Shown here piece after piece: positions 37,571 to 55,284 of a DNA stretch of 64,000 nucleotides. Source of the stretch: Bryobacterales bacterium (GTDB lineage: Bacteria > Acidobacteriota > Terriglobia > Bryobacterales > UBA6623). Where the stretch lies: assembly GCA_965203925.1 (NCBI GenBank), contig OZ241924.1, positions 4,085,894-4,149,893 of the forward strand, read 5' to 3'. The position numbers and the translations under genes were made by a program. The first letter of the stretch is position 1, and each line of letters opens with the position of its first letter. The notes under the pieces were generated by a model that was not told the DNA's origin, ran no database searches, and saw only the letters and a program-made list of their open reading frames with translations.

Positions 37571-38126
37571 TGGCACTTGGCCCGTGCCGTTGGTGGCCGG
37601 TCATGCGGGGCTGCCATCTCCGCCGCAACGTTTCGGAGGAACATCTTGAGCCCCACCCTAGACCGGCCATCGCGGAAGGCGGTACCCGTGTCCGATAGTG
37701 GCCGTTTAGGACTAGACGGCCTACTGGAACTGCTCTGGCTGCAGTTTCCGCACGCCACCCGCGGCCGCCGGAGCGAGGTCGCGACCCGCTCGTCCGCGCC
37801 GCATTGAGAAGCACTCGTTTGCTAGGGTGTCCGCCTGACGCTCGAAGAACTTATCCACACGGGCGCGGAGGGGGCTCCGGTTCGGGCCAATCGTGAGATT
37901 GGCAGTGTGAGCAGCAAGACCGCTGTCCAATCGCTACGAATTCTGAGGACACACGCCGTGCCAGCGGTCACGGGGACGCCTCGAAGACCGGGTCGGACCC
38001 CTGCAGTTCGCCGCAATGGGCTCAAGGTCGTTCTGCAAGATTCGGAAAGCACACTGGCGTAGTCCTCGAATATCGCGCGGATCCGCGCCAGGCTGGCCGC
38101 CGACTTGCTACTATGCTCTCAGAGTT

Positions 38127-39527: not shown

Positions 39528-39872
39528 GATCGGCGCTTCGGTGTTGGTCAGTTCAGTGCCAGCCGACCGCCAGTAGTCGCGACCGGCTGCCAATGTGCCG
39601 ACCGGTGCCACCGCGAACCCTCCCTCGACAGTGGGCCACCGGGCCAGGCGGTACTAGGCCGGGGGGCAACGGCAAATGCCTGCCGTACTTCGCGTAGCGG
39701 CCGTCGGGCGGTCGATAGAGGGTCATCAACGTCTGTGTGTTGAGGAACCCGCTAGGCGTCGGAGGGAGACAGTTCCTCTGCGAGTTTGGTCTCGAGGCGA
39801 GGCCGGATTGGCAGGCGGCTTGCACCGAGATGGCCACCTCAAGGCTCACTAGGCGACAAGCCCTCAGTGGGC

Positions 39873-42461: not shown

Positions 42462-42910
42462 CAGCCAGCGTTCGTGTGGGACGGTTCCAGTTTCGCTCAG
42501 GGGCAGGCCATGTGACAAGCTGAGTTGGCCGCGATCAGCGTTTGAGGCCAGAGCCTTCGCGAGTTGGCGCAGTTCCGCGGGCACCGAGCCGACCAGGATT
42601 CGGGTTTCCGAACGGCGAGCCCGCTCCCGAGCGCGGAACGCCAACTCGATGGGTAGCAGACCAATTCCTTTGCCCGTCCTCATTAGCTTGCTGTCGCAGC
42701 GACCGTGCCGGGCGACGACAAGCCCGCCACTGATCTTGCCTGATCCGAACCCATCCAGCACTTGCGTCCCGGACCTGATCGGGGCCAAGCACACCGATTC
42801 AGCTCGGCCCGTTTCTGCAACGAACGCGACTTGCCGGTGATAGCGGTCCGTCGCAACACGATTGGGAGGGGGCTGCGACCTGTTCCACTCATGGGGCTAG
42901 AATCGAGCCC

Positions 42911-44323
42911 GTGCGGAGGACTGCAGCGATCGCTGGAGTGCTGGTGAAAGTGGCCAGTGGCGGCTTGGATGCGTCCGAGCGCATTGACCGCTACGTCGAA
43001 TCGGAGATGCAGCTGAACGCCATTCCGGGCGTTGCCGTGGCAGTCGTGGAGGTTGGAGCCGATCCTCTTGTTCGGGCCTACGGTAGTCGCAACATTTCGG
43101 AACAAGATCCGATGACTGTGGACACGCCGACAGAACTTGCCTCAGTGAGCAAGTCTCTCACTGCGCTTGCCGTGCTGGAGGTCGAAGCGTCCGGGGCCGT
43201 GAGCCTGGACGCAAGCATCAGCACGGTCCTTCCCGAGCTCAACTCTGGAGACTGGCAGTCCGTCACCGTCAGGGACCTCTTGCGTCACCGCAGCGGGCTC
43301 CGTCGGGAGGACGACTTTCTTGTTCCCTGCTGCGGATTGTCCGGTGACCGGGACTTGGAGGTGGCGGTCAAGAGGCTTGCGGGTGCCAACTTGGCAGCGA
43401 GCATGGCACCTCTCTTCTCGTACGCGAACAGCAACTTTGTCCTCTTGGCCGCAATCGTAGAACGCCTCTCCGGCTTGACTTTCCCGCGATTCATGCAAGA
43501 GAGTGTCTTTGCACCATTGGATCTGCAGAGGACGACGTTGGATGGGCGCCAAGCCCATGAATGGAACGCATCCGCCCGTCATGAATGGCAGTGGGCGCGA
43601 GTGCGCGTTAGCCGGGCCCCGTTCGTGGGCTGGTACGGGAGTTCTCGGGTAAAGGCGACAGCGAGCGATATGGGTCGCTATTTGGCCGCCATGCTGGGGG
43701 ACACCGGTCCACCGAATGGTCTGCCGACCCTAGGCCCGGAATGGTGGGCCGGACTCGAGCCCGGCTATGACCTTGGCTGGTTCGTGGAGGAGGCTGACTG
43801 GCTAGACGGAGATCTGGTGTTGGAGCACTCGGGCGACATCTGGGGCGCAAACACAGCCATCGTACTTGCTCCTCGGCGCCGCACAGGGGTGGCCGTACTG
43901 ACCAATCTGGATGCGGGAAGGGCCCAACCGATTGCCCGGTCGATTCTCGCCAGCCTTCACGGTGCACCTCTGGTGTCTCCTATGCGGGCAGAGCCATTGG
44001 CCCGGCCAGACACGTGGGCCATAGCGTTTGTCGTGGGCGGAGTGCTCCTCCTTGGGTGGGCTATCGCCCTCGCCTGCATCCTCACTAGGCAACTTCGCAA
44101 CGGTCGCAGGCGATGGAAAGCAGGACCGGCCAGGATAATACGGTCAGCAATCCTGTGCGGGCTCGGCATTTGGCTTGCAGATTACTTCTTCTTGCGGCCC
44201 GACATGCCGCACGAGACCTTGCCGACGACGGTCGGCCAAGCCCTACCAGGTCTGGTCGCTGCAACTTCTGGACTACTGTTTGTCGTGGCTACGGCTGGGC
44301 TATTCCCAAAGTCCAGACGCTAG
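42911..44323 (+). CDS. Beta-lactamase-related serine hydrolase (class C/PBP-like) with C-terminal membrane helices
   Basis: SVSKSLTA (SxxK), YANSN (YxN), HSGD (KTG-equivalent) and two hydrophobic C-terminal segments. GTG start. Confidence 0.75.
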   Translation: MRRTAAIAGVLVKVASGGLDASERIDRYVESEMQLNAIPGVAVAVVEVGADPLVRAYGSRNISEQDPMTVDTPTELASVSKSLTALAVLEVEASGAVSLDASISTVLPELNSGDWQSVTVRDLLRHRSGLRREDDFLVPCCGLSGDRDLEVAVKRLAGANLAASMAPLFSYANSNFVLLAAIVERLSGLTFPRFMQESVFAPLDLQRTTLDGRQAHEWNASARHEWQWARVRVSRAPFVGWYGSSRVKATASDMGRYLAAMLGDTGPPNGLPTLGPEWWAGLEPGYDLGWFVEEADWLDGDLVLEHSGDIWGANTAIVLAPRRRTGVAVLTNLDAGRAQPIARSILASLHGAPLVSPMRAEPLARPDTWAIAFVVGGVLLLGWAIALACILTRQLRNGRRRWKAGPARIIRSAILCGLGIWLADYFFLRPDMPHETLPTTVGQALPGLVAATSGLLFVVATAGLFPKSRR

Positions 44324-44689
44324 GGCCGAACAGGAACCGGTGCCACAACCGCATTGTTGGACGATCAGGTCCGATGCCGATCCGACTCGCATGTGCCTTC
44401 ACCGGCGAGCTGGCTGCTGAATCACCGCTCGGCATGGCAAGCCAATGAAATCCGTTTGCGATGGGTCTCCGCGACCCGCACGAGGGAGGGCGATCAACGG
44501 AGCGCCATACCTAATCGCTCATCACGGTTGTTCGATCTGGCATAGGCAGCCATCCGCGGGCCGGGCGAACTTGAATCGTCGGACCGTGCCGTCGGTAGTC
44601 CCGCCAGCCACTTAAGGTTGTGATTGCGGCAGCTGGGCCCTCTGGCCAAGATCGGCGCCACCGCCGCCCGCGAGTATCGTCGGTCGCGT

Positions 44690-45880
44690 TCAGCCTGCCG
44701 CCTCCTCCGTCGCTCGCATGACCCGCATCACATTACCGCCCAGCACTTTCGCAACGTCGTCGTCGGAAAAGCCGCGCTCCTTCATCGCCTCGATCAGGTT
44801 CGGCGTCTTGCCGATGTGTTCTAGGCCAGCAGGTAGCCTCAGGCCGACACTGTCGAAGTCTGAGCCTAGGCCGACGTGTTCGATACCCGCAACCGTGGCC
44901 GCGTGCTCGATGTGGTCTACCAGGCGGCTTAGGGGTGGTGCTCCGATCAAGTCCACCTCGGCGAGGTTTAGCTTCCACAGCTCTTCTGAGAGCCGCTTCT
45001 TGTCGTTCGTGAACTCTTGCCGGACCGTAGACTTCTGCTGCCCGATCTCGGCCAGCTTGGGAAACTGGGAACGATACTCGTCGTCGAGCATTCCGGCGTA
45101 GTACGCCACGCCCAAGACGCCGCCGTTTTGGGCCAATGCCTTGAGCATTTCGTCGCTTAGGTTCCGAGGGTGGTTGGCAACGGCCCTGCAAGCTGCATGG
45201 GTGTTCAGGATGGGCAGGCTTGACGTCTCTATCGTGTCGAAGAAGGCCCTGTCGGAGGCGTGGGACAGGTCCGGCATCATTCCCAACCCATTCATCTCCT
45301 TGACGATCTCGCGGCCCAGCTCCGTAAGCCCCTCTGGCCCGTCGTCGTATTCGGCCGCGCCCACCCACGGCGTGTTCCCGCTGTGCGTCAGACCCAAGTA
45401 CCGCGTTCCCAAGCGGTACAGCTGTCGCAGCACTTCGACGCTGGAGTCGATCATGTGGCCGCCCTCCACTCCCAGGAAGACGGCGATCTTGCCTTCCGCA
45501 CGGGCGCGAGTGGCGTCGGCCGATGTCGTTCCGAGCAAGAGGTGCTCCGGGTGTTTCTTGACCGTCTCAACGACTACGTCCGTGATGCTCAGGGCGTCCT
45601 TGACGGATTCCACCGGGGCCTTGCGGCGCGCCGGACTGAATACCGCGAAGAAGCCAGCGTGCATTCCCCCTTGCCGCATCTTCGGAATGTCAACTTGGCT
45701 GTACTCCGGGCTCTCGGCTAGATTGAGCCGCTCGCTGACTAGCCTGGACGGCGTGTCGATGTGCAGGTCGAAGTAAAGAGGGCGCGTAGGAGTGGCCTGT
45801 TCCGGCTCTGGAGGAGCAGATGTACTGCAAGCGGCCGCGATCGCGACCGTTGAGATTCCGAATTCTCGTCGGGTGAGCAT
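44690..45880 (-). CDS. Membrane (renal-type) dipeptidase, peptidase family M19
   Basis: DLHIDTP, GVEGGHMID, LTHSGNTPW, DLSHASD and GLGSDFD blocks, with a Tat/lipoprotein-like leader. Confidence 0.85.
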   Translation of the reverse strand: MLTRREFGISTVAIAAACSTSAPPEPEQATPTRPLYFDLHIDTPSRLVSERLNLAESPEYSQVDIPKMRQGGMHAGFFAVFSPARRKAPVESVKDALSITDVVVETVKKHPEHLLLGTTSADATRARAEGKIAVFLGVEGGHMIDSSVEVLRQLYRLGTRYLGLTHSGNTPWVGAAEYDDGPEGLTELGREIVKEMNGLGMMPDLSHASDRAFFDTIETSSLPILNTHAACRAVANHPRNLSDEMLKALAQNGGVLGVAYYAGMLDDEYRSQFPKLAEIGQQKSTVRQEFTNDKKRLSEELWKLNLAEVDLIGAPPLSRLVDHIEHAATVAGIEHVGLGSDFDSVGLRLPAGLEHIGKTPNLIEAMKERGFSDDDVAKVLGGNVMRVMRATEEAAG

Positions 45881-46251
45881 AGACGGTCAGATTGTACAGA
45901 ACTGACCGCGAGCTGGTGGGCCGGCGGCAGCCCCACCGTGGATTGCGGGAGCGCTTGCGGCCATCGAGGCCGCCGCCAATTCCCGGAGTCGAGAGACGAT
46001 CTGACCTTCCTCCAATCACCAGCTCTCCCGGTACCGGAACTTGTAGACACAGCCCAGTTAGCCCATCACCGGCTCTGAGAGGAATCTCTGAGGGGAATCC
46101 TGTCGCCGTCTCGAGGAATCCCGTTTCGACGTAGGGAGGATGAACCGATTCGTCAGAGCCGTTCCCAAGGGACAACCAGCCCTACCACAGAGCCCTGCCA
46201 GACCCGATGTCAAAGCAGGTCTTGAATGAGTCGGTGTCCATGCCGCAAGCA

Positions 46252-46360
46252 CATGACTCGCTCAGCGTGATCCGCACCTATCGTTGAGTAACGTGGGCGT
46301 ATCCGTTGACGCGTCAGGAAAGCGCTATGCTATCCTACTCCGAGTGTCAAGAAGCCTCTA
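46252..46360 (+). promoter_or_regulatory. Conserved leader/promoter region of EEP gene copy A
   Basis: Aligns along its whole 109 nt with 51667..51774 (about two-thirds identity by eye). Includes CCGTTGACGC and the perfect palindrome TGACGCGTCA (46307..46316). Confidence 0.45.
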
Positions 46361-47248
46361 ATGCTGATTCTCTCGTGGAACGTCAATTGTGGTCCGCCCG
46401 AGAAACTCATCGCGAAGATCGAAGATAAGCAACCGGATATCATCACCTTGCAGGAAGTCAGGGTCCTGTTTGCTAATAAGTGGGCCAAACGTCTGAGAGA
46501 AATTGGTTTCAATGTCCACTTGAGCGGCAAGGAAGTCTGGCGTGGGAAGAAGGTCCCGGACCGGTGGTACCACTGCCTGATTGCGAGTCGCTGGGATCTG
46601 ACGCCCGACGGCATCAAGTGGCGCGAAAAAGCGCCTTACCGGGAATTGCTGGGGCGAGCCACAGTCTCTGTGCCTGACGAGGGGGACCTCGACGTGTTCA
46701 CCGCGCACATTCCCAACGGTAGCGGGTATGGCTGGGAGAAGATCGACACCTTCCACGTCCTGTCGGCGGAGCTGCGTGGAGCGAGCGACTCTCCGCGTAT
46801 TCTGACCGGCGACTTCAACGAACCGGAGTCGTTCAAAAGGTCGGGAGAGATCGTAACTTTCGTAGAAGGAACTCACGAGGTGGGAGGAAAGAGCGGGCCG
46901 ATCTATCGTGACAAGTTTCGTAAACAGCGCCAGAGCCGCCCGAGCATCGAGTGGACCAACGGTGTGCTTTCGGTCCTTGGGGGCGTGTCACACCACGGTC
47001 TGCGGGACGCCTATCGTGACCGTCGCGGCTTCGGGTGGCCGACCCCTGTCACGCACCGCACGAAATCCCTCAAGGAGCCGAGATGTTTCGACCACACCTT
47101 CGTCTCAAGACATTTCGAAGTCGTGAATTGTGGCTACTTCCACGAGTGGCGCAAGGCGGGATTGAGCGACCACTCGCCAATGTGGACAGAGCTTCGCCTT
47201 CGAACGGATCTACCGGGATTGAAACAGTGGGCGGACGACCGCTCCTGA
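46361..47248 (+). CDS. Endonuclease/exonuclease/phosphatase (EEP) family protein, copy A
   Basis: MLILSWNV (N), TLQEV (E), FTAHIPNGS, LTGDFNE and LSDHSPMW (D-H) blocks are all present. It is a paralogue of 51775..52593. Confidence 0.8.
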   Translation: MLILSWNVNCGPPEKLIAKIEDKQPDIITLQEVRVLFANKWAKRLREIGFNVHLSGKEVWRGKKVPDRWYHCLIASRWDLTPDGIKWREKAPYRELLGRATVSVPDEGDLDVFTAHIPNGSGYGWEKIDTFHVLSAELRGASDSPRILTGDFNEPESFKRSGEIVTFVEGTHEVGGKSGPIYRDKFRKQRQSRPSIEWTNGVLSVLGGVSHHGLRDAYRDRRGFGWPTPVTHRTKSLKEPRCFDHTFVSRHFEVVNCGYFHEWRKAGLSDHSPMWTELRLRTDLPGLKQWADDRS

Positions 47249-47545
47249 CGGCTTGTGTCTAGATTACGATCGCTCCCGGATTGTCTGCCGATTGCGGTTC
47301 GCTGGACTCTCGGCTGCGCTGGAATATCCGACTCTCTTGCAGAACTGAATTGGTTTCAGACCACGATGGGCCACGTGTGCCACAGTTCTCATAGCCTGAT
47401 CGACCTCTAACGGCCATTGACAATGACAGGGTTCCGCGACGCCGGTGGGACCGGCTTGTTCGTCGATCCGGAACTGGCAGCCGATTCGCGCTGGGCCTGC
47501 GACAGACCTACCGCAGCTTGGGTCGCTGGGTCTCGGCCCACCGTT
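47249..47545 (+). repeat. Conserved 3' tail of EEP copy A (repeat family, copy A)
   Basis: Blocks identical to copy B: GGACTCTCGGCTGCGCT (47304..47320 = 52675..52691), ACGATGGGCC (47363..47372 = 52734..52743), AACGGCCATTGA (47409..47420 = 52780..52791) and GTTCCGCG. Confidence 0.7.
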
Positions 47546-48199
47546 TCATTGCGGCGCTGGTCTACTAGGCAATGCACCTGATCCGCAAGCGACTGCTGGG
47601 TTCTGGCTAAACTAGCAGTCCATCCGGGAAGAGCTGCGGGACTGGAAGCGAGTGACGACGCCAGTGCAGCCGACGGACGGGACGCTGATCACGAATCGCC
47701 AAAATGTGCGGCTGGTGCCGGAGGCGGCGCGGGTCGCACAGGTTGCCGACCTGCAGCATCGACTGTACCGGTGCCGCAATCGGACCGGGAGCCAGACGAG
47801 TCGCCCGACGTAGTGCCATAGCTCCAGGCCAAGCCTTGGAGAGGAAGAGAGCGATGAGCTAGAACCCAGTCGTCGCGAGCCAACGGGTTCGACTCCCGTC
47901 CCGGTAGAGGCGTAGCCCGCCAGCCGGGAGCGAGTGCTTCATGCCGTGCACCAACGCACGTCGTGAAGCGTTCTCAGCGGGTGGTCAAGCGGTGCCGTTG
48001 AGCCTCGATGTCTTCAATGTTGGTGCCTTAGTCGTTGGCACAGCGGGGGCACCACCGGGGATGCCACTACAGGGGAGGCAGCACCGGGCCGAACGGGGTG
48101 TTGAGAACGCTCGCATAGCCACGGGATGGTTCTTCAAGGAACCGGGGAGATCTCCCACTGTCCACATCAAAGGGTCCGGGCCCTCCCGCAGCATGTGGG

Positions 48200-48494
48200 G
48201 TCCGCGAGCGAATCAACAGGCGAAGCGTCGTACTGGCTGGCGAATCAATTGGCTGACGGACAGCCTGAGATGTGGCAAGGTGCCTTCTTTGGGAGACAAA
48301 TCGAATAGTTGCATTCCGGGTTGACTCGGGGGCGCGTTGTGGTGCAGCCTACCTCAGCGCTTCGATTGGACCGTACGGACAGCAACCGGGCGGAGGAACG
48401 CACGGCGCATATCCTTGATGCTCAGGCCGGGCAGGTCGAAATTCTGCTCTAGCTCCGCCTTCTACCGCTGGTAGTCGCGGGGCGGCAAGGTGAT
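48200..48494 (-). pseudogene. Possible relic of the C-terminal catalytic region of a tyrosine recombinase (frameshifted, in-frame stops)
   Basis: Own translation shows two pieces in two frames. The first is ITLPPRDYQR*KAELEQNFDLPGLSIKDMRRAF. The second is IRFVSQRRHLATSQAVRQPIDSPASTTLRLLIRS, loosely matching the R.VPL ... F.ra ... HxLRHtfAT ... G.D...i..LLGHS order. The match is weak. Confidence 0.3.
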
Positions 48495-48521
48495 CTGAAG
48501 GCGGCTTCGGCTGCTTCTTGC

Positions 48522-48722
48522 TCATCGTGCCGTCTCCCGCTTGGTGAATCCCTCGAACAGCCCCTCCAGTCTAGCCATGCGCTCGCGAAGATCCGCGATA
48601 CCGCCACGCACTTCTGCAAGGTCCGCAGGGTTCTGAGACCTGAAGCTACGAAGATCGGCGGCAATCCATCCGAGCATGGCAAGAATCGCCGCTGCAACAA
48701 TCGACTCTGTCATGCGATTCAT
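48522..48722 (-). CDS. Hypothetical 66-aa protein: N-terminal hydrophobic anchor plus coiled coil
   Basis: MNRMTESIVAAAILAMLGWIAADL followed by LAEVRGGIADLRERMARLEGLFEG. Its stop overlaps (ATGA) the ATG of a decayed downstream reading frame. Confidence 0.4.
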   Translation of the reverse strand: MNRMTESIVAAAILAMLGWIAADLRSFRSQNPADLAEVRGGIADLRERMARLEGLFEGFTKRETAR

Positions 48723-48942
48723 GACCCTACCAGCTGTGTATCGCTACGTGCTAGGATTTATCAGCGCTCCATTCGCGGGGAACCCGCTAGGTCGGGCCTC
48801 CTGCCGAATACCACAGCCACGAACCCGGGCGAGGGAGTCATGACCCGAGCCCCGGCGAATAAGCAGGACGATTCGCATTTCCCGCGTAAATGGAGCAAGG
48901 CCCGGCACCCGGAGGGTGCTGGGGGTGGAACCGGAGGTTTCC

Positions 48943-51018
48943 GTGCGAGTCCTCGCTCTCGCAACGTTTCTGGCCGTGTCGCTGCATCCACTACGCGGAG
49001 AGACGAAGCAGCCGCAGCCGCGCCGTATGGTCGGAGGACAAGTCATCGCAACCGTCACGGAAGTTCCGTTTGTCGTTCTGGTCGGCAATGGGCTGAAGAC
49101 CTGTCTTGGGACTCTGCTGACGCCAAAGTGGATTCTAACGGCGGGGCATTGTGTGGATGGGGCCTCTTTCTTGGAAGTGGCCCACTTGAGCGGAGAGAGC
49201 GTGTACGGGTTTGCGAACACGGACGAACGCGCGGACAGATTCAGATGGGGCGTTCTGTTCCATCCCGATTACGATCCATTAAAGGGAGAAGCATCGACCA
49301 AGGACATCGCGCTGATCGAAATGAGCGAATCGCTGACAAGCCGCTACGTTAGGCCCGTAGAACTCCCGTCCGAGTCCCATGTTGCACAGATTCAGGATGG
49401 GTTGAGCGTCACGATTCTCGGGCTGGAACCGGCTAACTTGGTCCGGGCGGAATGGCCTGTGACCCCCTGCGACAATCCTGAAGACTGGATTGTCTGCGCC
49501 CAAATGAGCATGGCGCAGCATGTCGAGCCCGGAGACAGCGGCGGGGCCGTTCTCATGCGTGACGGTGAGGATTGGGTGCTTGTCGGGACGACGTTCTACT
49601 CTTATGGCGCTGGCGGGCAACTGGCGGCGCAGCGCACAAGTTACTACTTGCCTTGGATCGCCCAATATGTAGGCGACGGGCCGGATGGTTCCGGAACTTC
49701 GTCATCGTCCCAGACAATCACCGTGCAGTTGGGCCAGCACGGAGGCACGGCCCAATTCCAGATGACTCTGGCTGGTGGGTTCACCAGAGATGGCAATCCG
49801 TTCTCCAGTGGATCCACAGTAGTGTCGGAGATCAACGGTAAGACCTACAGGGTCACGCTGTCGGGAACGACCGGGACCGCAGAGTTCGTGGCACCAGACC
49901 AAGTGCGGCTGCGGCTTGGCGGCAGCGGGGAGGCTCTGTTCATCGATGAGAACGAAGATGGCACCTACACCGGAACGTTGGCGGTGAACTTCGAAGAGAC
50001 CACGTTTCGCAGCGGCGACCTAGTCAGGACGAGCAGGGGCGTCCAGTACCGCCTCACCATGGATGACGGCACTTGGACAGCCGCCTTTGAGGCCTCGCCA
50101 CCAGTACAGATCACGCTTGGGGCGAGCGAGTACCCCATCGAGCTGGTCATGACCGAAGACGGTGGTTACACGCTCAACGGAAACCAGTTCCGAAGCGGGG
50201 ACATCGTCACCACTCCGACCGACAGCCGCTATCGGCTGACGTTGGTGGACGGCGAGTGGCAGTACACCTATGTGCCGCCGGCCCCGATCCGGGTCTCGCT
50301 GGGCGCATCCGGCGAGGTCGCACTGCTGATGCGCCGGGAGAATGGCAGCTATGAGATCGGTGGCACCGTAATCACGAGCGGCGACAGCATACAGGCCGAC
50401 AACGGCAACAGCTACCGCATCCGCTTCCAAGGCGACCGGTGGACAGCTGCCTTCGTCCCGGCTCCGCCCGTGTCGGTGACGCTTGGGATGAGCGGTTTGC
50501 AAATCTCGCTGGCGCGCCAAGAAGACGGCAGCTACCGGCACGGCAACGACGTGATCCAGAGCGGCGGCACGATCACGGCCGCCAACGGCAGCGAATACCG
50601 GCTAACGCTCGCGAACGGAGTTTGGCGGGCAACATATGTCCTGCCGCGAGGCATCCCGGTCCTTCTAGGCATCAGCGGAGAGTTGGCCAACGTAGTGCGC
50701 CTAGAAGATGGCACCTACCAAGTCAACGGCCAGCCGCTGGGCCCCGATTCGACGGTTAGGGCCTCGAACGGGAACGAATACCGCATCCGCTTCCAAGGTG
50801 GCCAGTGGACAGCTGCGCTCGTGACGGACCCGTCAGTGCCAGATGCCAGCCCAAGGGTGACTATCACGCTCCAGAACGGAACATCCTCATCATGCAGCAT
50901 CGAGGACCTACTCACTACCGCCGGAGCATCAAGTGCAGAACCCGGGACGAGCGTGGACGTGCAGGTTCAAGGGCAGGTCTTCCGGACTGTCTTGCTGGTT
51001 GAGTGCGGACAGCCGTAG
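48943..51018 (+). CDS. Secreted trypsin-like (S1) serine protease with C-terminal tandem repeats of about 61 aa
   Basis: LTAGHC (His), DIALIE (Asp) and GDSGGAV (Ser). I place the start at GTG 48943, preceded by GGAGG (48933..48937); the track start is 48916. The C-terminal half is repetitive. Confidence 0.8.
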   Translation: MRVLALATFLAVSLHPLRGETKQPQPRRMVGGQVIATVTEVPFVVLVGNGLKTCLGTLLTPKWILTAGHCVDGASFLEVAHLSGESVYGFANTDERADRFRWGVLFHPDYDPLKGEASTKDIALIEMSESLTSRYVRPVELPSESHVAQIQDGLSVTILGLEPANLVRAEWPVTPCDNPEDWIVCAQMSMAQHVEPGDSGGAVLMRDGEDWVLVGTTFYSYGAGGQLAAQRTSYYLPWIAQYVGDGPDGSGTSSSSQTITVQLGQHGGTAQFQMTLAGGFTRDGNPFSSGSTVVSEINGKTYRVTLSGTTGTAEFVAPDQVRLRLGGSGEALFIDENEDGTYTGTLAVNFEETTFRSGDLVRTSRGVQYRLTMDDGTWTAAFEASPPVQITLGASEYPIELVMTEDGGYTLNGNQFRSGDIVTTPTDSRYRLTLVDGEWQYTYVPPAPIRVSLGASGEVALLMRRENGSYEIGGTVITSGDSIQADNGNSYRIRFQGDRWTAAFVPAPPVSVTLGMSGLQISLARQEDGSYRHGNDVIQSGGTITAANGSEYRLTLANGVWRATYVLPRGIPVLLGISGELANVVRLEDGTYQVNGQPLGPDSTVRASNGNEYRIRFQGGQWTAALVTDPSVPDASPRVTITLQNGTSSSCSIEDLLTTAGASSAEPGTSVDVQVQGQVFRTVLLVECGQP
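49740..50880 (+). repeat. In-frame tandem repeats (about 183 nt / 61 aa, 5-6 units) inside the S1 protease gene
   Basis: The recurring pattern is xYR(L/I)T(L/F)..G.W.A.(F/Y)V.P.P..V.LG.SG.......EDG.Y...G....SGD. Units two apart are most alike: 50411.. and 50776.. both encode YRIRFQG..WTAA. Confidence 0.8.
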
Positions 51019-51026
51019 GAGGGATT

Positions 51027-51518
51027 ATGAGACACACATGCACACTAACGTTGGCTGCGACAGTCCTCTGCGGGATGGCCAGCGGCGTCGAGCCCCGCAC
51101 AGCCGTCCCGGTGTTCGTAGCGCCGACCAAGGGAGACGACGGCCAATTCAGCGACATGCTCAAGGTCGAACTGATGAAGCGCAAGGGCCTCATCAAGGCC
51201 AAGGTCGATATCGTGCGTTGGCCCGAAGCCGCCCAATACATTCTGGAAGTCTCGATTGCGTACCAGCGGGGCAGAAGGCAGCGCACGATTTGGCAAACCG
51301 AGCGCGCCACGGCCGTCGCATCGGCTATGGCCTACGACGCTTGCGGAAGGCTTGTATGGAGCAAGGTCAAGGGCGACAAGGTTTTGGGGGACGCGGAAGG
51401 CGTCATTGAAACGGCGCAGAAGATGGCTCGCTCGTTCAAGGAGGCGCTGGCCAAGAGGAAGAGCCGTCTGAACCGTGCGCCACCGTGCCTGTCTGTCGGG
51501 GATGAACTGCGGCCTTAG
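51027..51518 (+). CDS. Hypothetical small secreted protein (163 aa) coupled to the S1 protease gene
   Basis: ATG 51027 sits 8 nt after the protease stop and is preceded by GGAGGG. Signal-like MRHTCTLTLAATVLCGMASG. I recognise no motif. Confidence 0.55.
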   Translation: MRHTCTLTLAATVLCGMASGVEPRTAVPVFVAPTKGDDGQFSDMLKVELMKRKGLIKAKVDIVRWPEAAQYILEVSIAYQRGRRQRTIWQTERATAVASAMAYDACGRLVWSKVKGDKVLGDAEGVIETAQKMARSFKEALAKRKSRLNRAPPCLSVGDELRP

Positions 51519-51666
51519 CCTCAGCGGAGGCCCTTGTGGGGCCCATGGAACAACCTACGCTGGATTTGCGTTGAATAGCAGGTGCTCCTTCGCAGGGTCT
51601 GCCATCGCTTGTACTCGCCATCGCCGTCGATGCGAAGTCGGCAGTTATCCCTCATCACCACAGGCT

Positions 51667-51774
51667 CATCACTCGCCCACCGTGACCTAAACGGATCGCT
51701 GGTAACATAGGAGCGCCCGTTGACGCTTCAGGGAAACGTCAACGTAGACTACTCCGGCTGTTCTGGAAGCCATC
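51667..51774 (+). promoter_or_regulatory. Conserved leader/promoter region of EEP gene copy B
   Basis: Homologous to 46252..46360. Contains the inverted repeat CGTTGACG (51718..51725) / CGTCAACG (51737..51744). Confidence 0.45.
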
Positions 51775-52593
51775 ATGCTGATTCTCTCGTGGAACGTCAG
51801 ACTTCTCCCCGATCGCCCGCCCGACAACCGCACGGAGCAAATCGATTCTGCTCGACCGGATATCGTCACATTGCAGGAAGTCTCGCGACATTCTGCCCGT
51901 GCCCGTGCTTGGGTGGACCGTCTTAGAGACATTGGCCTTGTTCACTGTCATTTGAGCGGTGAGGACATATCAAGGAAGTCGTACCAGTGTCTTATCGCAA
52001 GCCGCTGGAAGGTGACACCCGTCGAGAGCGGCTGGCGACACGACGCACCTTACCCGGAATTGCTCGGGCGAGCCACAGTCTCTGTGCCTGACGGGAGAAC
52101 TGTCGACGTGTTCACCGCGCACATCCCTAACGGTTCCAATCATGGCTGGAAGAAGATCGACACGTTTCACGTCCTAGCGGCGGAGCTTCGAAGAGCGAGC
52201 GCCCTGCCGCGTATCCTGACGGGCGACTTCAACGAGCCGAAGAAGATTAGGGAGTCGGGGCAGATCGTGACTTGGAGAGGGACGGGTCGCACGGAGCGCT
52301 GGCGTGACAAGTTCGGCGACGAGCGTCCGCTCATAGAGTGGAGGAACGGCGTGTGCGCAGTCCTCAACGGCAAGTCGGCGCACGGTCTGTCGGACGCCTA
52401 TCGCGACTGTCACGGAATCCAGCCGCCCGACCTCTCGACTTGGCGAAAATATTGTTACGACCATACGTTCGTCTCAAGACATTTCGAAGTCCTAGACTGC
52501 GGCTACTACCACAACTGGCGCCATCAGCTCAAGTTGAGCGATCACTCGCCCATGTGGACAGAACTCCGCCTTCGAGCGGATGTACCGGAATGA
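51775..52593 (+). CDS. Endonuclease/exonuclease/phosphatase (EEP) family protein, copy B
   Basis: Has the same catalytic blocks as copy A. The first 25 nt are identical to copy A, and the C-terminal LSDHSPMWTELRLR is identical. Confidence 0.8.
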   Translation: MLILSWNVRLLPDRPPDNRTEQIDSARPDIVTLQEVSRHSARARAWVDRLRDIGLVHCHLSGEDISRKSYQCLIASRWKVTPVESGWRHDAPYPELLGRATVSVPDGRTVDVFTAHIPNGSNHGWKKIDTFHVLAAELRRASALPRILTGDFNEPKKIRESGQIVTWRGTGRTERWRDKFGDERPLIEWRNGVCAVLNGKSAHGLSDAYRDCHGIQPPDLSTWRKYCYDHTFVSRHFEVLDCGYYHNWRHQLKLSDHSPMWTELRLRADVPE

Positions 52594-52995
52594 GACAAGG
52601 GGTGGGCGACTGCCCCTAAACGGCACTGTCCATACAGCGTTCCCTCCCGGGTCATCTACCGTATTCGGGGCGGCGGACTCTCGGCTGCGCTAGTACATCA
52701 GACCTCCTTGGGGAACCGTACTTGTTCTGGGCAACGATGGGCCCCGTGCAACTTGGTCCTCGTAGCTTGCTCGACCGCGAACGGCCATTGAGAAGACCAG
52801 AGTTCCGCGGCAACGGTACCAACGTTCGACGAACCGCCGTTGGCCAGCCCGAGACCAGCTTGTGACACGACTCCGATGTCTGTATCCCGGGTGACACCCG
52901 AGTCGTGCCTTGCCGGCAGCGGTCGGAGGAGAACCGCCGCTTGGCGGTTTGCCGGAGGCAATTGCCGCAGAGCCCAGACTCCGTTGCGGCCACGG
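52594..52995 (+). repeat. Conserved 3' tail of EEP copy B (repeat family, copy B; right part also matches copy C)
   Basis: The left part matches 47249..47545 (see copy A). The right part (about 52784..52995) matches 54621..54805, including the 18-nt identity CCGGCAGCGGTCGGAGGA (52913..52930 = 54724..54741). Confidence 0.7.
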
Positions 52996-53488
52996 GTGAA
53001 CGAGGAACGGTGCGGACAGGGTCTTTCTTCATGGCAATGGGAGGCAGAGGGGATTCGGCATCGCCTCCAGGTCGACCTGCCGAGGCTGGCCCAAGGTCTC
53101 AGGCCAGAGCCAACCGTTTTCGCTCAGGCGACCCAGCATTGCGCACAACGCCCTTGCATTCCGAGAATCGCTGGCGGCGACGTGCCTACGAGCATTCGGA
53201 CGGCTCCGGGATAGAGCACGCGCAGTCAGCGGAACACATCCGGCAGGAGTTGCAGATCGGCACCCCGATCTGACGGGGGCGAGTCCCGTCTCAGACCAAG
53301 ATTGCACCTTGCCGTGCCACCCGGCTACCGTGACGCTTACCAATGCTATGCCGCTGGGTCGGCATCATGCTAGAGTTGAAATTACCAGTGTGCCGGCGGT
53401 GTCTGTTGACCAATCCTCCGTGCGGACCACGAACAAAAACATTCATCTGTATGATTTACGGGCTATCACACGGAATGCGAGCAACTTC

Positions 53489-54379
53489 ATGATCGACCCC
53501 GCCACAGCACAGCGAGTCCTAAAGGCTCTCACCGACGAAGACAGGGACTTGTACTTTTACAGCGGCAGCATCTCCGCGACGAATGTAGCGATCTTCCACA
53601 ACGTGATTGAGCAGGCACGTTCCCGAGAGCGATCGAGGGCATCACTGGTACTCACGACCTTGGGCGGCGACGCCCACCAGGCCTTTCGATTGGCAAGGCT
53701 GTTCAAGAGTCACTACCCCCGAGCGGGGGCGCGTCGCTTGGTGGTCGTCGGGCCATGCAAAAGTGCCGGAACGCTGATCGCAGTAAGTGCCGACGAACTT
53801 GCCATGGGCCCATTGGGTGAGCTTGGACCTCTGGACGTTCAGCTTGCCAAACAGGACGAGATCGCCGTATCCACGTCGGGCCTCGACACCCTTGAGGCTC
53901 TGGCGGTCCTTCAGCGAGCAGCCTTTGAAGCGTTCGAGACATACATGGTTACAATCGTCAATCGGAGTAACGGAAGGGTCTCGACCAAGACGGCGTGCGA
54001 CATCGCGGCCACGATCGTATCGGGCGTGTTTCGGCCGATCGCAGGTAAGATCGATCCGCTTGTACTCGCGCAGGCTGACCGCAGGATGCGGATTGCCTTG
54101 GCGTATGGTAAGCGCCTTCGCAGTCCGAATCTTATCGGCGAGCACAAGCTGGTTGACTTGGTCAGGAGCTACCCATCCCACGGTTTCGTGATCGACCGAG
54201 TCGAAGCGGAGAGAATATTCGAGAGGGTGCACGGCCCTTCGGAGGCTGAGGAATCAGTGCTCGGGCTACAATACCCAACAGGGCAGAATGAGGAGGTCGT
54301 ACGCGATGTCGTTCAAGATCTTGACTCGCTTGTCAGAAACGCCGCCCAAGCGTCCGCAGAGCTTGGTTCGCCCAGCTGA
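53489..54379 (+). CDS. ClpP-fold serine protease of the SDH (serine dehydrogenase proteinase)/S49-like type
   Basis: LVLTTLGGDAHQAFRLARLF and GPCKSAGTLIAVSADELAMGPLGELGPLD resemble the Clp-fold/SDH_sah pattern. I place the start at ATG 53489 (MIDPATAQRVL); the track starts at TTG 53309. Confidence 0.6.
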   Translation: MIDPATAQRVLKALTDEDRDLYFYSGSISATNVAIFHNVIEQARSRERSRASLVLTTLGGDAHQAFRLARLFKSHYPRAGARRLVVVGPCKSAGTLIAVSADELAMGPLGELGPLDVQLAKQDEIAVSTSGLDTLEALAVLQRAAFEAFETYMVTIVNRSNGRVSTKTACDIAATIVSGVFRPIAGKIDPLVLAQADRRMRIALAYGKRLRSPNLIGEHKLVDLVRSYPSHGFVIDRVEAERIFERVHGPSEAEESVLGLQYPTGQNEEVVRDVVQDLDSLVRNAAQASAELGSPS

Positions 54380-54620
54380 AGTGGGCTCTCTGGCGCTTGC
54401 GCGGGTAAGGGAGTTGGTGCAAGATGGGCTCGGGGCGATGGAGCCGGCGAGACCGATTCCCAAAGATCGTCGTCGGCCCCCGCCGACAGCCAATCGGTTC
54501 CCGTGAATCGGTGGTTCACCTGAACAGCACTCAGGGATAACGTTCTCTTTCGACGGTGCTTCGGCACGACCGGATCGAATCGCAAGAATTCGTTCCACCA
54601 TCCGGTGCTTGGGCCATTCC

Positions 54621-54805
54621 ACCGAGGCGGCAAACAGCCGGTGAACTGCCAGTGGCCGACCCCGCGCCCGCTTGTGGCGTGCCACGGATCGCTGCGTCCC
54701 GGTGACATCCGAGTCGTGCGTTTCCGGCAGCGGTCGGAGGAAAACGGTCGCATGGCGGTTTGAAGTAGGCAAGTGCCGCAGAGCACGGACTCCGATTCGG
54801 CCACC
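54621..54805 (+). repeat. Third, partial copy of the EEP-tail repeat family (copy C), downstream of the ClpP-fold gene
   Basis: Aligns with 52784..52995. The shared blocks are GGCCATT, GCTTGTG, CCCGGTGACA(C/T)CCGAGTCGTGC, CCGGCAGCGGTCGGAGGA, GGCGGTTTG, TGCCGCAGAGC and GACTCCG. Confidence 0.65.
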
Positions 54806-54834
54806 GGAGTTCCCGTAGCCCGTACCCAGCGACC

Positions 54835-55284
54835 CTACCCAGCTTCCCCCTCTGCCACGCGCCTTCGTAGGCAGGCGAAGAATCGGTCCGCCACCATCTT
54901 TGTTGTGCCTGCCAAGAGTCGCTGGCCCACCCGAGCTACGGCTCCGCCTATCTGGGCCTTCGCGGTGACCGACACCGAACTCCCGGCGTCGTTCGGCGCG
55001 ATTGTGACGCGCGATTCTCCCTTCGCGTAGCCGGCCGGCCCACGACCGTCCACTCTCATCGAGTAGGAATGCGGGCGATCTAGGTCCCGGAGCTCTACCG
55101 TGCCCTTGAAGCGGCCCTTGATTGCCGCGACGCCGATCGTCATTTGGGCCCGGTAGCGGTTCTCCCCGATTGCCTCGAGCCGCTCACAACCCGGCAGACA
55201 TTTCGCCACCGTCGCCGGGTCCGTCATCGCGTCGAACACGCGGCCGGGATTCGCTTCGAAACTGTATCGGGACTGGAACTGCAT
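54835..55284 (-). CDS. coxG: CoxG-like SRPBCC protein (CO dehydrogenase subunit G family)
   Basis: MQFQSRYSFEANPGRVFDAMTDPATVAKCLPGCE is typical of CoxG. It is the last gene of the cox-like cluster. Confidence 0.8.
   Translation of the reverse strand: MQFQSRYSFEANPGRVFDAMTDPATVAKCLPGCERLEAIGENRYRAQMTIGVAAIKGRFKGTVELRDLDRPHSYSMRVDGRGPAGYAKGESRVTIAPNDAGSSVSVTAKAQIGGAVARVGQRLLAGTTKMVADRFFACLRRRVAEGEAG

What the first reader, a model, noticed from the sequence alone, without database searches (positions are those of the whole stretch)
45881..54834. Accessory island built around two diverged EEP-nuclease modules plus two unrelated serine proteases
About 9 kb between two core genes (M19 dipeptidase, coxG) differs in character from its surroundings.

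It contains two intact paralogous EEP genes in direct orientation, at 46361..47248 and 51775..52593. Their first 25 nt are identical, as are MLILSWNV and the C-terminal LSDHSPMWTELRLR. Each has a homologous leader of about 109 nt and a homologous 3' tail.

Between them lie:
- a 1.3-kb gene-poor stretch with recombinase-like debris;
- a 66-aa anchor plus coiled-coil ORF;
- a secreted S1 protease with tandem repeats;
- a translationally coupled small secreted protein.

After the second EEP gene comes a ClpP/SDH-fold protease bracketed by further copies of the tail repeat.

All sizeable genes are on the + strand. I know of no described defence, toxin-antitoxin or secretion system with this composition. 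Nuclease-plus-protease combinations are common in conflict systems, but that link is inference only.
Basis: partly seen in the sequence, partly recalled or inferred. Interest (0 to 1): 0.75.

Follow-up and report, generated by a model that had tools for sequence, protein, structure and literature searches.

The report
Mosaic accessory islet, not one system
The 9 kb between the dipeptidase and coxG genes is a real strain-variable insertion hotspot in a Bryobacterales (Acidobacteriota) genome, but its nuclease and protease genes are independent accessory cassettes rather than parts of one new conflict system.

Summary
The region is accessory: in a related genome coxG and the M19 dipeptidase are adjacent (240-nt gap), and a third genome carries about 12 kb of unrelated cargo there.

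The components do not travel together:
- None of the 57 genome loci from other lineages that carry an EEP homologue has either protease within 10 kb; the only one that does (L032) is this islet in a near-identical strain.
- 80 metagenome loci and 2 phages with the SDH/ClpP-fold protease have no EEP.
- The small secreted protein occurs elsewhere, with or without a trypsin gene, never with an EEP outside this species.

Each EEP copy is a 1.2-kb unit (leader, gene, tail). It belongs to a multi-copy, fast-evolving, stand-alone ExoIII/APE1/TDP2-like family. Near-identical strains carry different EEP alleles at the same position.

The "recombinase debris" is a dead group II intron 5' fragment. The repeats around the SDH gene are real but are not copies of the EEP tail.

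No PADLOC defence model matches. In a sister strain a type III-A retron lies upstream of the same trypsin module.

Verdict: an ordinary flexible islet. The EEP family is the only moderately interesting lead.

The parts
45881..46242 (.). Variable spacer between the M19 start and the EEP1 unit. Contains a 13-nt x2 tandem repeat at 46073-46099.
   Evidence: Identity to sister strain L059 falls from at least 95% inside M19 to 57-88% here. Only about 20 nt upstream of the M19 ATG is shared with the empty-site genome L061. Tandem repeat.
46243..46360 (+). EEP1 leader, probably a promoter plus 5' UTR.
   Evidence: Homologous to 51658-51774. The last roughly 100 nt are conserved upstream of EEP genes in several Bryobacterales loci (L001-L004, L007, L009, L014, L030). 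No covariation-supported structure.
46361..47248 (+). EEP1: 295-aa stand-alone EEP-fold nuclease or phosphodiesterase.
   Evidence: PF03372 at 52.8 bits. Catalytic residues are invariant across the family. Foldseek finds TDP2, ExoIII and APE1 at E about 5e-11. The family profile hits L1-EN and ExoIII in the PDB.
47249..47446 (+). EEP1 3' tail, ending in a terminator-like hairpin at 47441-47455.
   Evidence: 68% identical to the EEP2 tail with no codon periodicity. Hairpin. Found only in this species' copies.
47839..48159 (+). Dead 5' fragment of a group II intron.
   Evidence: RF02005 at 81 bits against a gathering score of 49, at 47890-48109. About 70% identical to introns on Rhizobium, Bradyrhizobium and Methylocystis plasmids. 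No RF00029 (D5/D6) hit and no RT ORF, unlike the complete R. etli copy.
48522..48722 (-). 66-aa ORF with an N-terminal hydrophobic segment and a coiled coil; uncertain gene. It overlaps by 4 nt the start of a 58-aa ORF at 48349-48525(-).
   Evidence: ORF list. No family hit. Its C-terminal 30 aa are 50% identical to a small ORF beside the small-protein homologue in L072 (E 1e-5 against the fetched loci only).
48916..51018 (+). Trypsin-like (S1A) protease with a hydrophobic N-terminus and about six 61-aa C-terminal repeats; probably secreted.
   Evidence: PF00089 at 3.5e-22. Best PDB matches are kallikrein and prostasin. The motifs TAGHC, DIALI and GDSGG are visible in the translation. Repeats. 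The sister-strain copy is 498 aa with fewer repeats.
51027..51518 (+). Small (163-aa) protein with a signal-peptide-like N-terminus; function unknown.
   Evidence: Start inferred from 13 homologues. The family has 14 proteins; the only one with a source name is a Bryobacterales MAG. No Pfam, NCBIfam, PHROG or PADLOC hit. AlphaFold2 pLDDT is only 59.
51658..51774 (+). EEP2 leader.
51775..52593 (+). EEP2: 272-aa paralogue of EEP1 (56-62% aa identity).
   Evidence: PF03372 at 44.3 bits. All invariant family residues are present. Against EEP1: dS 0.62 and dN/dS 0.51.
52594..52817 (+). EEP2 3' tail.
52798..53020 (+). DRa: upstream copy of the roughly 0.2-kb direct repeat flanking the SDH gene.
   Evidence: 79-85% identical to DRb. 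Mismatches show no codon periodicity and the two copies share no common fold.
53309..54379 (+). SDH/ClpP-fold serine protease of a prophage accessory-gene type. The likely true start is the ATG at 53489.
   Evidence: phrog_21683 1e-66, NF047768 6e-8, PF01972 4e-5. It is 41-47% identical to lone genes in a Klebsiella prophage and a Burkholderia P2-like phage. The GPCKSAGTL motif is conserved. A profile hit to the NfeD protease has E 0.003.
54612..54834 (+). DRb: downstream copy of the direct repeat, abutting the coxG stop codon.
   Evidence: It is not present in the coxG-M19 spacer of L061.

Best explanation
Window 45.9-54.8 kb is a flexible genomic islet. It sits at a recombination or insertion hotspot between two conserved core genes (coxG and an M19 dipeptidase) of a Bryobacterales (Acidobacteriota) genome. 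It is a mosaic of independent accessory cassettes, not a single system.

(1) Two diverged copies of a self-contained 1.2-kb EEP transcription unit (conserved leader, gene, 3' tail with a terminator-like hairpin). They encode cytoplasmic, metal-dependent ExoIII/APE1/TDP2-like nucleic-acid phosphodiesterases. The family is stand-alone, multi-copy per genome, spread across phyla and fast-evolving. The 1.2 kb of shared sequence lets copies exchange by homologous recombination or gene conversion. That explains why sister strains carry different alleles at the same position, and the same allele at different positions.

(2) An exported trypsin-like protease with a variable number of 61-aa repeats, followed by a small exported protein found so far only in a 14-member family.

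(3) A prophage-type SDH/ClpP-fold protease flanked by 0.2-kb direct repeats, already carrying a nonsense codon in one sister strain.

(4) A dead group II intron fragment.

Shown: the anatomy, the empty site, strain polymorphism, lack of co-occurrence, fold and family assignments. Inferred: recombination as the mechanism of allele exchange, the promoter and terminator roles of leader and tail, export of the protease pair, and any cellular role of the EEP enzymes. My best guess for that role is cleavage of foreign or damaged DNA.
For: Empty and alternative sites:
- L061 (M19 84% aa identical) has coxS/L/M-MoxR-VWA-coxG directly followed by M19.
- CAYWUV010000003 has about 12 kb between coxG and M19 holding a TonB-dependent receptor, DUF3386, three sulfatases and a DUF6036 pair.

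Strain mosaicism:
- L059 (M19 97% aa identical) carries an EEP only 70-74% identical to EEP1 at the same position. Identity along the unit swings between 0.35 and 1.0.
- L067 has S1 (498 aa), the small protein (98% identical) and then the same foreign EEP allele. That allele is 93.6% nt identical to the L059 unit. Its upstream cargo differs: a type III-A retron and PDC-S26.
- The L032 SDH gene has a stop at codon 266.
- Contigs L059, L067, L068, L069 and L032 all end in or just beyond the EEP unit, as expected for a repeated sequence.

Independence of the parts:
- Among the 58 genome EEP loci, only L032 (the same islet in a near-identical strain) has an S1 or SDH protease.
- The 114 neighbours hit 62 Pfam families with no recurrent protease.
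- 0 of 80 SDH loci have an EEP, S1 or the small protein. Their recurrent neighbours are XRE, ImmA/IrrE, cI-like repressors and IS1595.
- SDH is a lone gene in two phages.
- Small-protein homologues occur with a trypsin gene but no EEP (L072), or alone (L073, L074).

EEP family:
- Three proteins are listed on the same 7.06-Mb contig length, and 2-4 copies occur in other MAGs.
- Identity is 50-70% across Acidobacteriota, Gemmatimonadota and others.
- dN/dS is 0.4-0.5 against 0.07 for M19.
- Syntenic Terriglobia orthologues are 78-85% identical while their neighbours are 85-97%.
- Fold.

Intron fragment.
Against: - The source genome itself could not be retrieved, so the third EEP copy and the full repeat census are inferred from protein records. 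Sister-strain contigs are short and come from different samples, so which alleles coexist in one genome is unknown.
- In L067 the trypsin, small protein and EEP are again adjacent. That is the same locus in a close relative, so it is not independent evidence, but it does not exclude local co-function.
- Gene conversion was inferred from mosaic identity, not tested with a recombination detector.
- A retron and PDC-S26 lie next to the module in a sister strain, the SDH homologues sit in prophages, and the EEP evolves fast. All three are compatible with a defence role that PADLOC 2.0 would not recognise.
- The origin and meaning of the 0.2-kb direct repeats remain unexplained.
Confidence: 0.7

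Rival explanations
1. The EEP unit is a stand-alone anti-mobile-element defence nuclease under diversifying selection. The islet is a small defence island in which the SDH protease is a second, phage-derived exclusion gene. The parts act independently but share a theme.
For: - dN/dS is 0.4-0.5 and alleles are replaced between near-identical strains.
- The EEP evolves faster than its syntenic neighbours in Terriglobia.
- A sister strain has a type III-A retron (RT 1e-99, PRTase 2e-105) and PDC-S26 upstream of the same S1-small-EEP module.
- The third paralogue-type copy (L069) lies near AbiEii.
- SDH homologues sit in prophage immunity or accessory positions.
Against: - No PADLOC model hits any of the islet's proteins.
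- Only about 5 of 114 EEP neighbours in other genomes hit defence models. Most neighbours are sulfatases, BNR sialidases and DUF1501/PSD proteins, and other metabolic genes.
- In Terriglobia the gene is stably syntenic rather than island-borne.
- A lone nuclease with no partner for self/non-self discrimination would need an unknown specificity.
- Elevated dN/dS can also reflect relaxed constraint.
Confidence: 0.2
2. The EEP genes are ordinary repair or nucleotide-salvage paralogues (ExoIII/AP-endonuclease-like). The trypsin pair is a nutrient-acquisition or host-matrix protease. All are accessory metabolic genes with no conflict role.
For: - The N-terminal half matches exodeoxyribonuclease III models (TIGR00633, 2.6e-8).
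- The fold matches ExoIII, APE1 and TDP2.
- Neighbours in other genomes are largely glycan and sulfate-ester degradation genes.
- The S1 protease has a hydrophobic N-terminus and an intact catalytic triad.
Against: - Scores are far below the Xth equivalog cut-off (33.7 against 99 bits).
- Housekeeping repair enzymes are not usually multi-copy, 70% diverged between strains whose flanking genes are 97% identical, or evolving at dN/dS 0.4-0.5.
Confidence: 0.15
3. The 1.2-kb EEP unit is itself a selfish mobile cassette, comparable to a free-standing homing-endonuclease gene. It spreads by cutting and copying itself into new sites and seeded the islet.
For: - Multiple copies per genome in unrelated contexts, and distribution across phyla.
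- The unit boundary lies at the same position (46243 and its equivalents) in four copies.
- The closest PDB sequence matches include the LINE-1 endonuclease.
Against: - No terminal inverted repeats or target-site duplications were reported for the region.
- The tail is not shared by the third paralogue type or by other genomes.
- The leader homology extends further upstream in other Bryobacterales, so there is no sharp end.
- The gene is stably syntenic in Terriglobia.
- It is absent from IMG/VR and essentially absent from plasmids.
Confidence: 0.07
4. The whole islet is one new multi-gene conflict system in which EEP nucleases are controlled or activated by the serine proteases.
For: - All large genes are co-oriented.
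- Trypsin, small protein and EEP are adjacent in two related strains.
- Protease-plus-nuclease pairings exist in known defence systems (general knowledge).
Against: - No co-occurrence outside this species in either direction.
- Each EEP has its own leader and terminator-like tail.
- The trypsin and small protein look exported while the EEP has no signal sequence.
- SDH is a pseudogene in one strain.
- A dead intron and small reverse-strand ORFs interrupt the array.
Confidence: 0.04

Closest known systems
Flexible genomic islets and defence-island hotspots between conserved core genes
   Same: The flanking core genes are adjacent in a relative. Different genomes carry different cargo at the same junction. 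Content varies between strains. The region holds mobile-element debris (an intron fragment here; IS21 and a retron in a sister strain). GC and GC3 are slightly lower than in the core.
   Different: There is no integrase, no tRNA and no repeats flanking the whole islet. Most cargo here is not recognisable defence genes.
ExoIII / APE1 / TDP2 / LINE-1 EN branch of the EEP superfamily (PF03372)
   Same: The domain scores above its cut-off. The catalytic Asn, Glu, Asp, Asn, Asp and His residues are conserved. The predicted fold matches TDP2, ExoIII and APE1 (Foldseek probability 1.0).
   Different: It falls far below the Xth equivalog cut-offs. It carries a family-specific, poorly modelled insertion (residues about 154-213). 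It is multi-copy and fast-evolving, and its substrate is unknown.
SDH-type ClpP-fold serine proteinases (PF01972, NF047768), as accessory genes of temperate phages (phrog_21683)
   Same: It shares the conserved GPCKSAGTL serine motif. It is 41-47% identical to lone genes in a Klebsiella prophage (annotated SppA) and a Burkholderia P2-like phage. It is a single gene without a fixed partner.
   Different: It scores below the Pfam and NCBIfam cut-offs. Here it is chromosomal, outside any recognisable prophage, and flanked by 0.2-kb direct repeats.
Bacterial group II introns of the Rfam D1-D4-6 type (related copies on Rhizobium and Bradyrhizobium plasmids)
   Same: It gives a full-length match to RF02005 (81 bits) and is about 70% identical in nucleotides to rhizobial introns over 320 nt.
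   Different: It lacks the reverse transcriptase/maturase ORF and domains 5 and 6, so it is an inactive remnant.

Membership tests
EEP superfamily (Pfam PF03372) | Domain score above the Pfam gathering threshold | tested here: met
   EEP1 scores 52.8 bits and EEP2 44.3 bits against a cut-off of 24.5.
EEP superfamily (Pfam PF03372) | Conserved metal-binding and catalytic residues (N-terminal Asn/Glu, GDFN, SDH motifs) | tested here: met
   N7, E32, D151, N153, D270 and H271 (among others) are invariant in 32 sequences, including both window copies.
EEP superfamily (Pfam PF03372) | Four-layer alpha/beta sandwich fold like ExoIII or APE1 | tested here: met
   The AlphaFold2 model has pTM 0.79. 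Foldseek against the PDB finds TDP2, ExoIII and APE1 at E 5e-11 to 3e-9, probability 1.0, TM 0.55-0.70. Residues 154-213 are poorly modelled.
Exodeoxyribonuclease III (Xth; TIGR00633, TIGR00195) | Score above the NCBIfam equivalog cut-off | tested here: not met
   33.7 bits against 99.05, and 27.3 against 182.55. Only the N-terminal half aligns.
Known anti-phage defence systems (PADLOC-DB 2.0) | Any islet protein matching a defence-system model | tested here: not met
   Seven proteins were scanned at E up to 0.1. The only hit was a chance-level LmuA match (E 0.045, 11 bits) to the S1 protease.
Multi-gene system (operon-like functional unit) | Components co-occur across independent lineages | tested here: not met
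   None of the 57 genome EEP loci from other lineages has S1 or SDH (the 58th, L032, is the same islet in a near-identical strain). 0 of 80 SDH loci have EEP, S1 or the small protein. The small-protein family occurs without an EEP in L072-L074.
Peptidase S1 (chymotrypsin/trypsin, PF00089) | Domain above cut-off and His/Asp/Ser triad motifs | tested here: met
   79.8 bits against 20.6. TAGHC, DIALI and GDSGG are in the translation. Best PDB hits are kallikrein and prostasin at 1.5e-11.
SDH-type ClpP-fold proteinase (PF01972, NF047768) | Score above the curated cut-offs | tested here: inconclusive
   PF01972 scores 23.2 bits against 31.3, and NF047768 scores 32.4 against 250. Only about 70 residues around the active-site serine align. 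phrog_21683 matches at 1e-66 over residues 77-341. An NfeD ClpP-fold protease is the only PDB profile hit (E 0.003).
Functional group II intron | 5' ribozyme domains (D1-D4 model) | tested here: met
   RF02005 scores 81 bits against a gathering score of 49, model positions 1-225.
Functional group II intron | Catalytic domain 5/6 (RF00029) and an intron-encoded reverse transcriptase | tested here: not met
   No RF00029 hit at E up to 1 in 45800-55000. No Pfam hit for ORFs in 47941-48700. The complete R. etli relative has both.
Classical integrative genomic island | Integrase or recombinase gene, tRNA target, flanking direct repeats | tested here: not met
   No recombinase domain in any tested ORF. 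The only tRNA in the window is at 23.3 kb. No repeat pair flanks the whole islet.
Hotspot-type flexible islet | Flanking core genes adjacent in a relative, and alternative cargo in others | tested here: met
   L061 has coxG then M19 with a 240-nt gap. CAYWUV010000003 has about 12 kb of other genes. Strain variants are seen in L059, L067 and L032.
Structured regulatory or non-coding RNA in leader, tail or direct repeat | Conserved secondary structure with covariation, or a fold more stable than shuffles in all copies | tested here: not met
   Leader: 5 predicted pairs and none compensatory. Tail: covariation term +3.7 with many broken pairs. Direct repeat: z-scores from -2.9 to +0.1 and different folds in the two copies. 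No Rfam family reached its gathering score.

The most novel reading that the evidence does not exclude
The 1.2-kb EEP unit represents an unrecognised family of stand-alone, fast-evolving nuclease cassettes. They are multi-copy, spread across Acidobacteriota, Gemmatimonadota and other phyla, and exchange alleles between chromosomal positions by gene conversion. Under this reading they act as a single-gene anti-mobile-element nuclease (or as a selfish cassette) whose specificity lies in the variable insertion at residues about 154-213.
Probability: 0.2. Interest if true: 0.6.

Novelty: new member of a known kind. Interest (0 to 1): 0.3.

Why it matters
As found, this matters mostly as a caution. 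A co-oriented cluster of nuclease and protease genes between core genes looks like a new conflict system. Comparative context shows it to be a patchwork.

What survives is modest. It is a documented insertion hotspot (coxG|M19) in Bryobacterales whose content differs between genomes and strains. It also points to an uncharacterised EEP subfamily: 246 representatives at E up to 1e-30, multi-copy, dN/dS 0.4-0.5, with alleles swapped between near-identical strains.

If that family proved to be a defence or selfish nuclease, it would add an EEP-fold enzyme to the list of stand-alone conflict genes in poorly studied, uncultured phyla.

Tried and rejected
1. Leader as a riboswitch or structured RNA: RNAalifold on 11 copies found 5 pairs and none compensatory. 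It was read instead as promoter plus UTR, though the sigma-70 consensus scan found no match there.
2. EEP tail as a non-coding RNA: three distinct copies gave an unfavourable covariation term. Its divergence (32%) is in line with dS 0.62, so conservation needs no special explanation.
3. Direct repeats around SDH as coding sequence, structured RNA, or native coxG flank: no codon periodicity, no shared fold, and absent from the L061 spacer. The exact core pattern is absent from JGI metagenomes. Two viral-contig hits to an 18-mer were not followed up and are probably chance.
4. "Recombinase debris": no Pfam hits.
5. The 58-aa reverse ORF as a pseudogene of the 61-aa gene next to the L072 trypsin: E 0.76, not significant.
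6. EEP on phages or plasmids: none in IMG/VR, and only 25%-identical haloarchaeal plasmid genes.
7. Small protein as a protease inhibitor: the AlphaFold2 model has pLDDT 59, too poor for a fold search.
8. PDDEXK_4/PDC-S26 as a recurrent EEP partner: two neighbours elsewhere hit it, but they show no sequence similarity to the L067 copy and it is not adjacent there.
9. Literature searches for the SDH proteinase family in a defence context returned nothing relevant. One search failed on term syntax.
10. Direct retrieval of the source genome through exact-protein look-up failed.

Full report
**Observation**

The ORF map matches the finding:
- M19 dipeptidase, 44690-45880(-)
- EEP1, 46361-47248(+)
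- a 66-aa ORF, 48522-48722(-)
- a 700-aa trypsin-like protease, 48916-51018(+)
- a small ORF, 51003-51518(+)
- EEP2, 51775-52593(+)
- an SDH/ClpP-like protease, 53309-54379(+)
- coxG, 54835-55284(-)

Pfam confirms M19, COXG, Exo_endo_phos (twice) and Trypsin above their cut-offs. SDH_protease falls below its cut-off.

Self-BLAST shows one 1.2-kb duplication, 46243-47446 against 51658-52817 (69% identity). It covers the gene, a 118-nt leader and a roughly 200-nt tail. There is also a separate direct repeat, 52831-52996 against 54643-54807 (79% identity), extendable to about 220 nt.

Profiles of the tail and of the direct repeat each find only their own two copies in the window. The repeats around the SDH gene are therefore not further tail copies. 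The upstream one simply abuts the end of the EEP2 tail.

The trypsin-like protein has about six 61-aa tandem repeats. Homologues of the small protein begin at the ATG at 51027, 8 nt after the S1 stop.

Island GC is 60.5% against 63.0% for the rest of the window. GC3 of the EEP and SDH genes is 0.67-0.71, against 0.76-0.83 for the flanking genes M19, coxG, VWA and MoxR.

**The gene-poor stretch**

Rfam finds a full-length match to group-II-D1D4-6 (RF02005, 81 bits against a gathering score of 49) at 47890-48109(+). It finds no domain 5/6 model.

The segment 47839-48159 is about 70% identical to introns on Rhizobium, Bradyrhizobium and Methylocystis plasmids. A complete R. etli copy carries RF02005, then ltrA, then RF00029.

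No ORF in 47447-48730 hits Pfam. The "recombinase-like debris" is therefore a dead 5' fragment of a group II intron.

**Is it an island?**

Yes. M19 homologues gave contexts in relatives:
- In L061 (M19 84%, MoxR 87%, VWA 77%, coxG 68% aa identity), the CO-dehydrogenase-like cluster ends with coxG and M19 follows after 240 nt. Only the coding ends and about 20 nt upstream of M19 align with the window.
- In Bryobacterales MAG CAYWUV010000003, coxG and M19 are about 12 kb apart. Between them lie a TonB-dependent receptor, DUF3386, three sulfatases and a DUF6036 pair.
- Near-identical strains carry versions of the islet. L059 aligns at 92.7% over window 38001-47501. L032 (a MAG titled Bryobacterales) aligns at 96.7% over 51978-55098.

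There is no integrase, no nearby tRNA and no repeat flanking the whole region.

**Is it one system?**

No evidence supports that, and several tests argue against it.

*The EEP family.* There are 241 clusters at 90% identity and 246 representatives at E up to 1e-30 in the wider search. The family was located in 58 genome loci from Bryobacterales, Terriglobia, Longimicrobiales/Gemmatimonadota and others.

None of these loci has an S1 or SDH homologue within 10 kb, except L032, which is the same locus. The 114 immediate neighbours in 34 loci hit 62 Pfam families. The recurrent ones (BNR sialidase, sulfatase, DUF1501, PSD/PSCyt) reflect lineage-specific synteny. About five neighbours hit PADLOC models.

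*The SDH protease.* A profile retrieved 80 metagenome loci. None has an EEP, S1 or small-protein homologue within 8 kb. Their recurrent neighbours are XRE regulators, ImmA/IrrE, cI-like repressors and IS1595 transposases.

In a Klebsiella prophage the homologue lies beside the XRE/ImmA module. In a Burkholderia P2-like phage it follows the integrase. The gene matches phrog_21683 at 1e-66.

*The small protein.* Its family has 14 proteins; the only one with a source name is a Bryobacterales MAG.
- In L072 it lies downstream of a different trypsin gene, separated from it by insertion sequences, with no EEP.
- In L073 and L074 it is alone.

*Defence models.* PADLOC finds nothing in the islet's proteins.

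**The EEP unit**

Both copies keep all family-invariant catalytic residues. A family profile hits LINE-1 endonuclease and ExoIII/APE1 in the PDB. An AlphaFold2 model (pTM 0.79) matches TDP2, ExoIII and APE1 by Foldseek. Scores are far below the Xth equivalog cut-offs.

The leader is conserved upstream of EEP genes in other Bryobacterales but shows no covariation. The tail ends in a terminator-like hairpin and is shared only within this species. Its 32% divergence is comparable with dS 0.62.

The family is multi-copy. Three members are listed on a 7,061,630-nt contig, and other MAGs have 2-4 copies.

It evolves fast:
- dN/dS is 0.4-0.5 among paralogues, against 0.07 for M19.
- Syntenic Terriglobia orthologues are 78-85% identical while their neighbours are 85-97%.

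Alleles differ between close strains:
- L059, whose M19 is 97% identical, has an EEP only 70-74% identical at the EEP1 position. Identity along the unit is mosaic, from 0.35 to 1.0.
- That allele is 93.6% nt identical to the one that follows the small protein in L067, which is the EEP2 position.
- Contigs of five assemblies end in or just beyond the unit.

I read this as ectopic recombination or gene conversion between repeated units. That is an inference, not a test.

**Other strain differences**

- The L067 trypsin is 498 aa with fewer repeats.
- The L067 upstream cargo is a type III-A retron (RT 1e-99, PRTase 2e-105) plus PDC-S26 and an IS21 fragment.
- The L032 SDH gene has a stop at the family-invariant Tyr266.

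**Conclusion**

The region is a real accessory islet at a coxG|M19 hotspot. It was assembled from independent cassettes and reshaped by recombination.

The EEP enzymes are most likely cytoplasmic nucleic-acid phosphodiesterases whose role is unknown. A defence role is possible (probability about 0.2) but untested. The trypsin pair is probably exported. The SDH protease is a prophage-type accessory gene that is decaying in one strain.

Nothing here is categorically new. The EEP subfamily is the one lead worth an experiment.

Noticed in passing
window 47839-48159 (+): A 5' fragment of a group II intron (RF02005, 81 bits) without reverse transcriptase or domain 5/6. It is about 70% identical to introns on Rhizobium, Bradyrhizobium and Methylocystis plasmids.
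   Followed up: yes
window 53242-53299 (-): Weak match to the CPEB3 (HDV-like) ribozyme model: 21.8 bits against a gathering score of 35, E 0.043 for the 9.2-kb search. It lies just upstream of the SDH gene and is probably chance.
   Followed up: no
L032 2141-3211 (orthologue of window 53309-54379): The SDH protease of a 97%-identical strain carries a premature stop at codon 266, a tyrosine invariant in the family. The gene looks dispensable.
   Followed up: partly
L067 1-6669: In a sister strain the sequence upstream of the same trypsin gene is a type III-A retron (RT 1e-99, PRTase 2e-105), a PDC-S26/PDDEXK_4 gene and an IS21 IstB fragment. The window instead has the 66-aa ORF, the intron fragment and EEP1 there.
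   Followed up: partly
window 48916-51018 vs L067 7748-9244: The trypsin-like protease differs in length between strains (700 against 498 aa) through loss or gain of about three 61-aa repeats. The N-terminal protease domain is 96% nt identical.
   Followed up: partly
L002 and L062 (CAYWUV010000003.1, about 76.4-89.2 kb): The same coxG|M19 junction in another Bryobacterales MAG holds about 12 kb of unrelated cargo: a TonB-dependent receptor, DUF3386, three sulfatases, and a 143-aa plus DUF6036 gene pair.
   Followed up: partly
L005, L010, L012, L013, L015: In Terriglobia genomes, two of them titled Candidatus Versatilivorator, the EEP gene is stably syntenic (PSCyt/DUF1553, DUF1501, EEP, BNR sialidase). 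It still diverges 2-4 times faster in protein sequence than its neighbours.
   Followed up: partly
L072 2535-9110: A related genome has a small reverse-strand coiled-coil ORF pair, a trypsin gene, and a small-protein homologue. Two insertion sequences (IS66-type and a DruA/DDE-associated gene) separate the trypsin gene from the small-protein homologue. A further small ORF resembles the window's 66-aa ORF.
   Followed up: partly
L069 83-3935: A third EEP paralogue type (67% identical to EEP1, like P0005 of the source genome) lies beside DUF3500 and an AbiEii-like gene pair. The contig starts 82 nt upstream of the EEP gene, another assembly break at the repeated unit.
   Followed up: no
window 46073-46099: A 13-nt tandem repeat (CTCTGAGAGGAAT, 2.1 copies) lies in the variable spacer between M19 and the EEP1 leader.
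   Followed up: no
window 47447-47838: About 390 nt between the EEP1 tail and the intron fragment have no ORF, no Rfam match and no similarity to any fetched locus. The sister-strain contig L059 ends inside this stretch, at the position equivalent to 47501.
   Followed up: no
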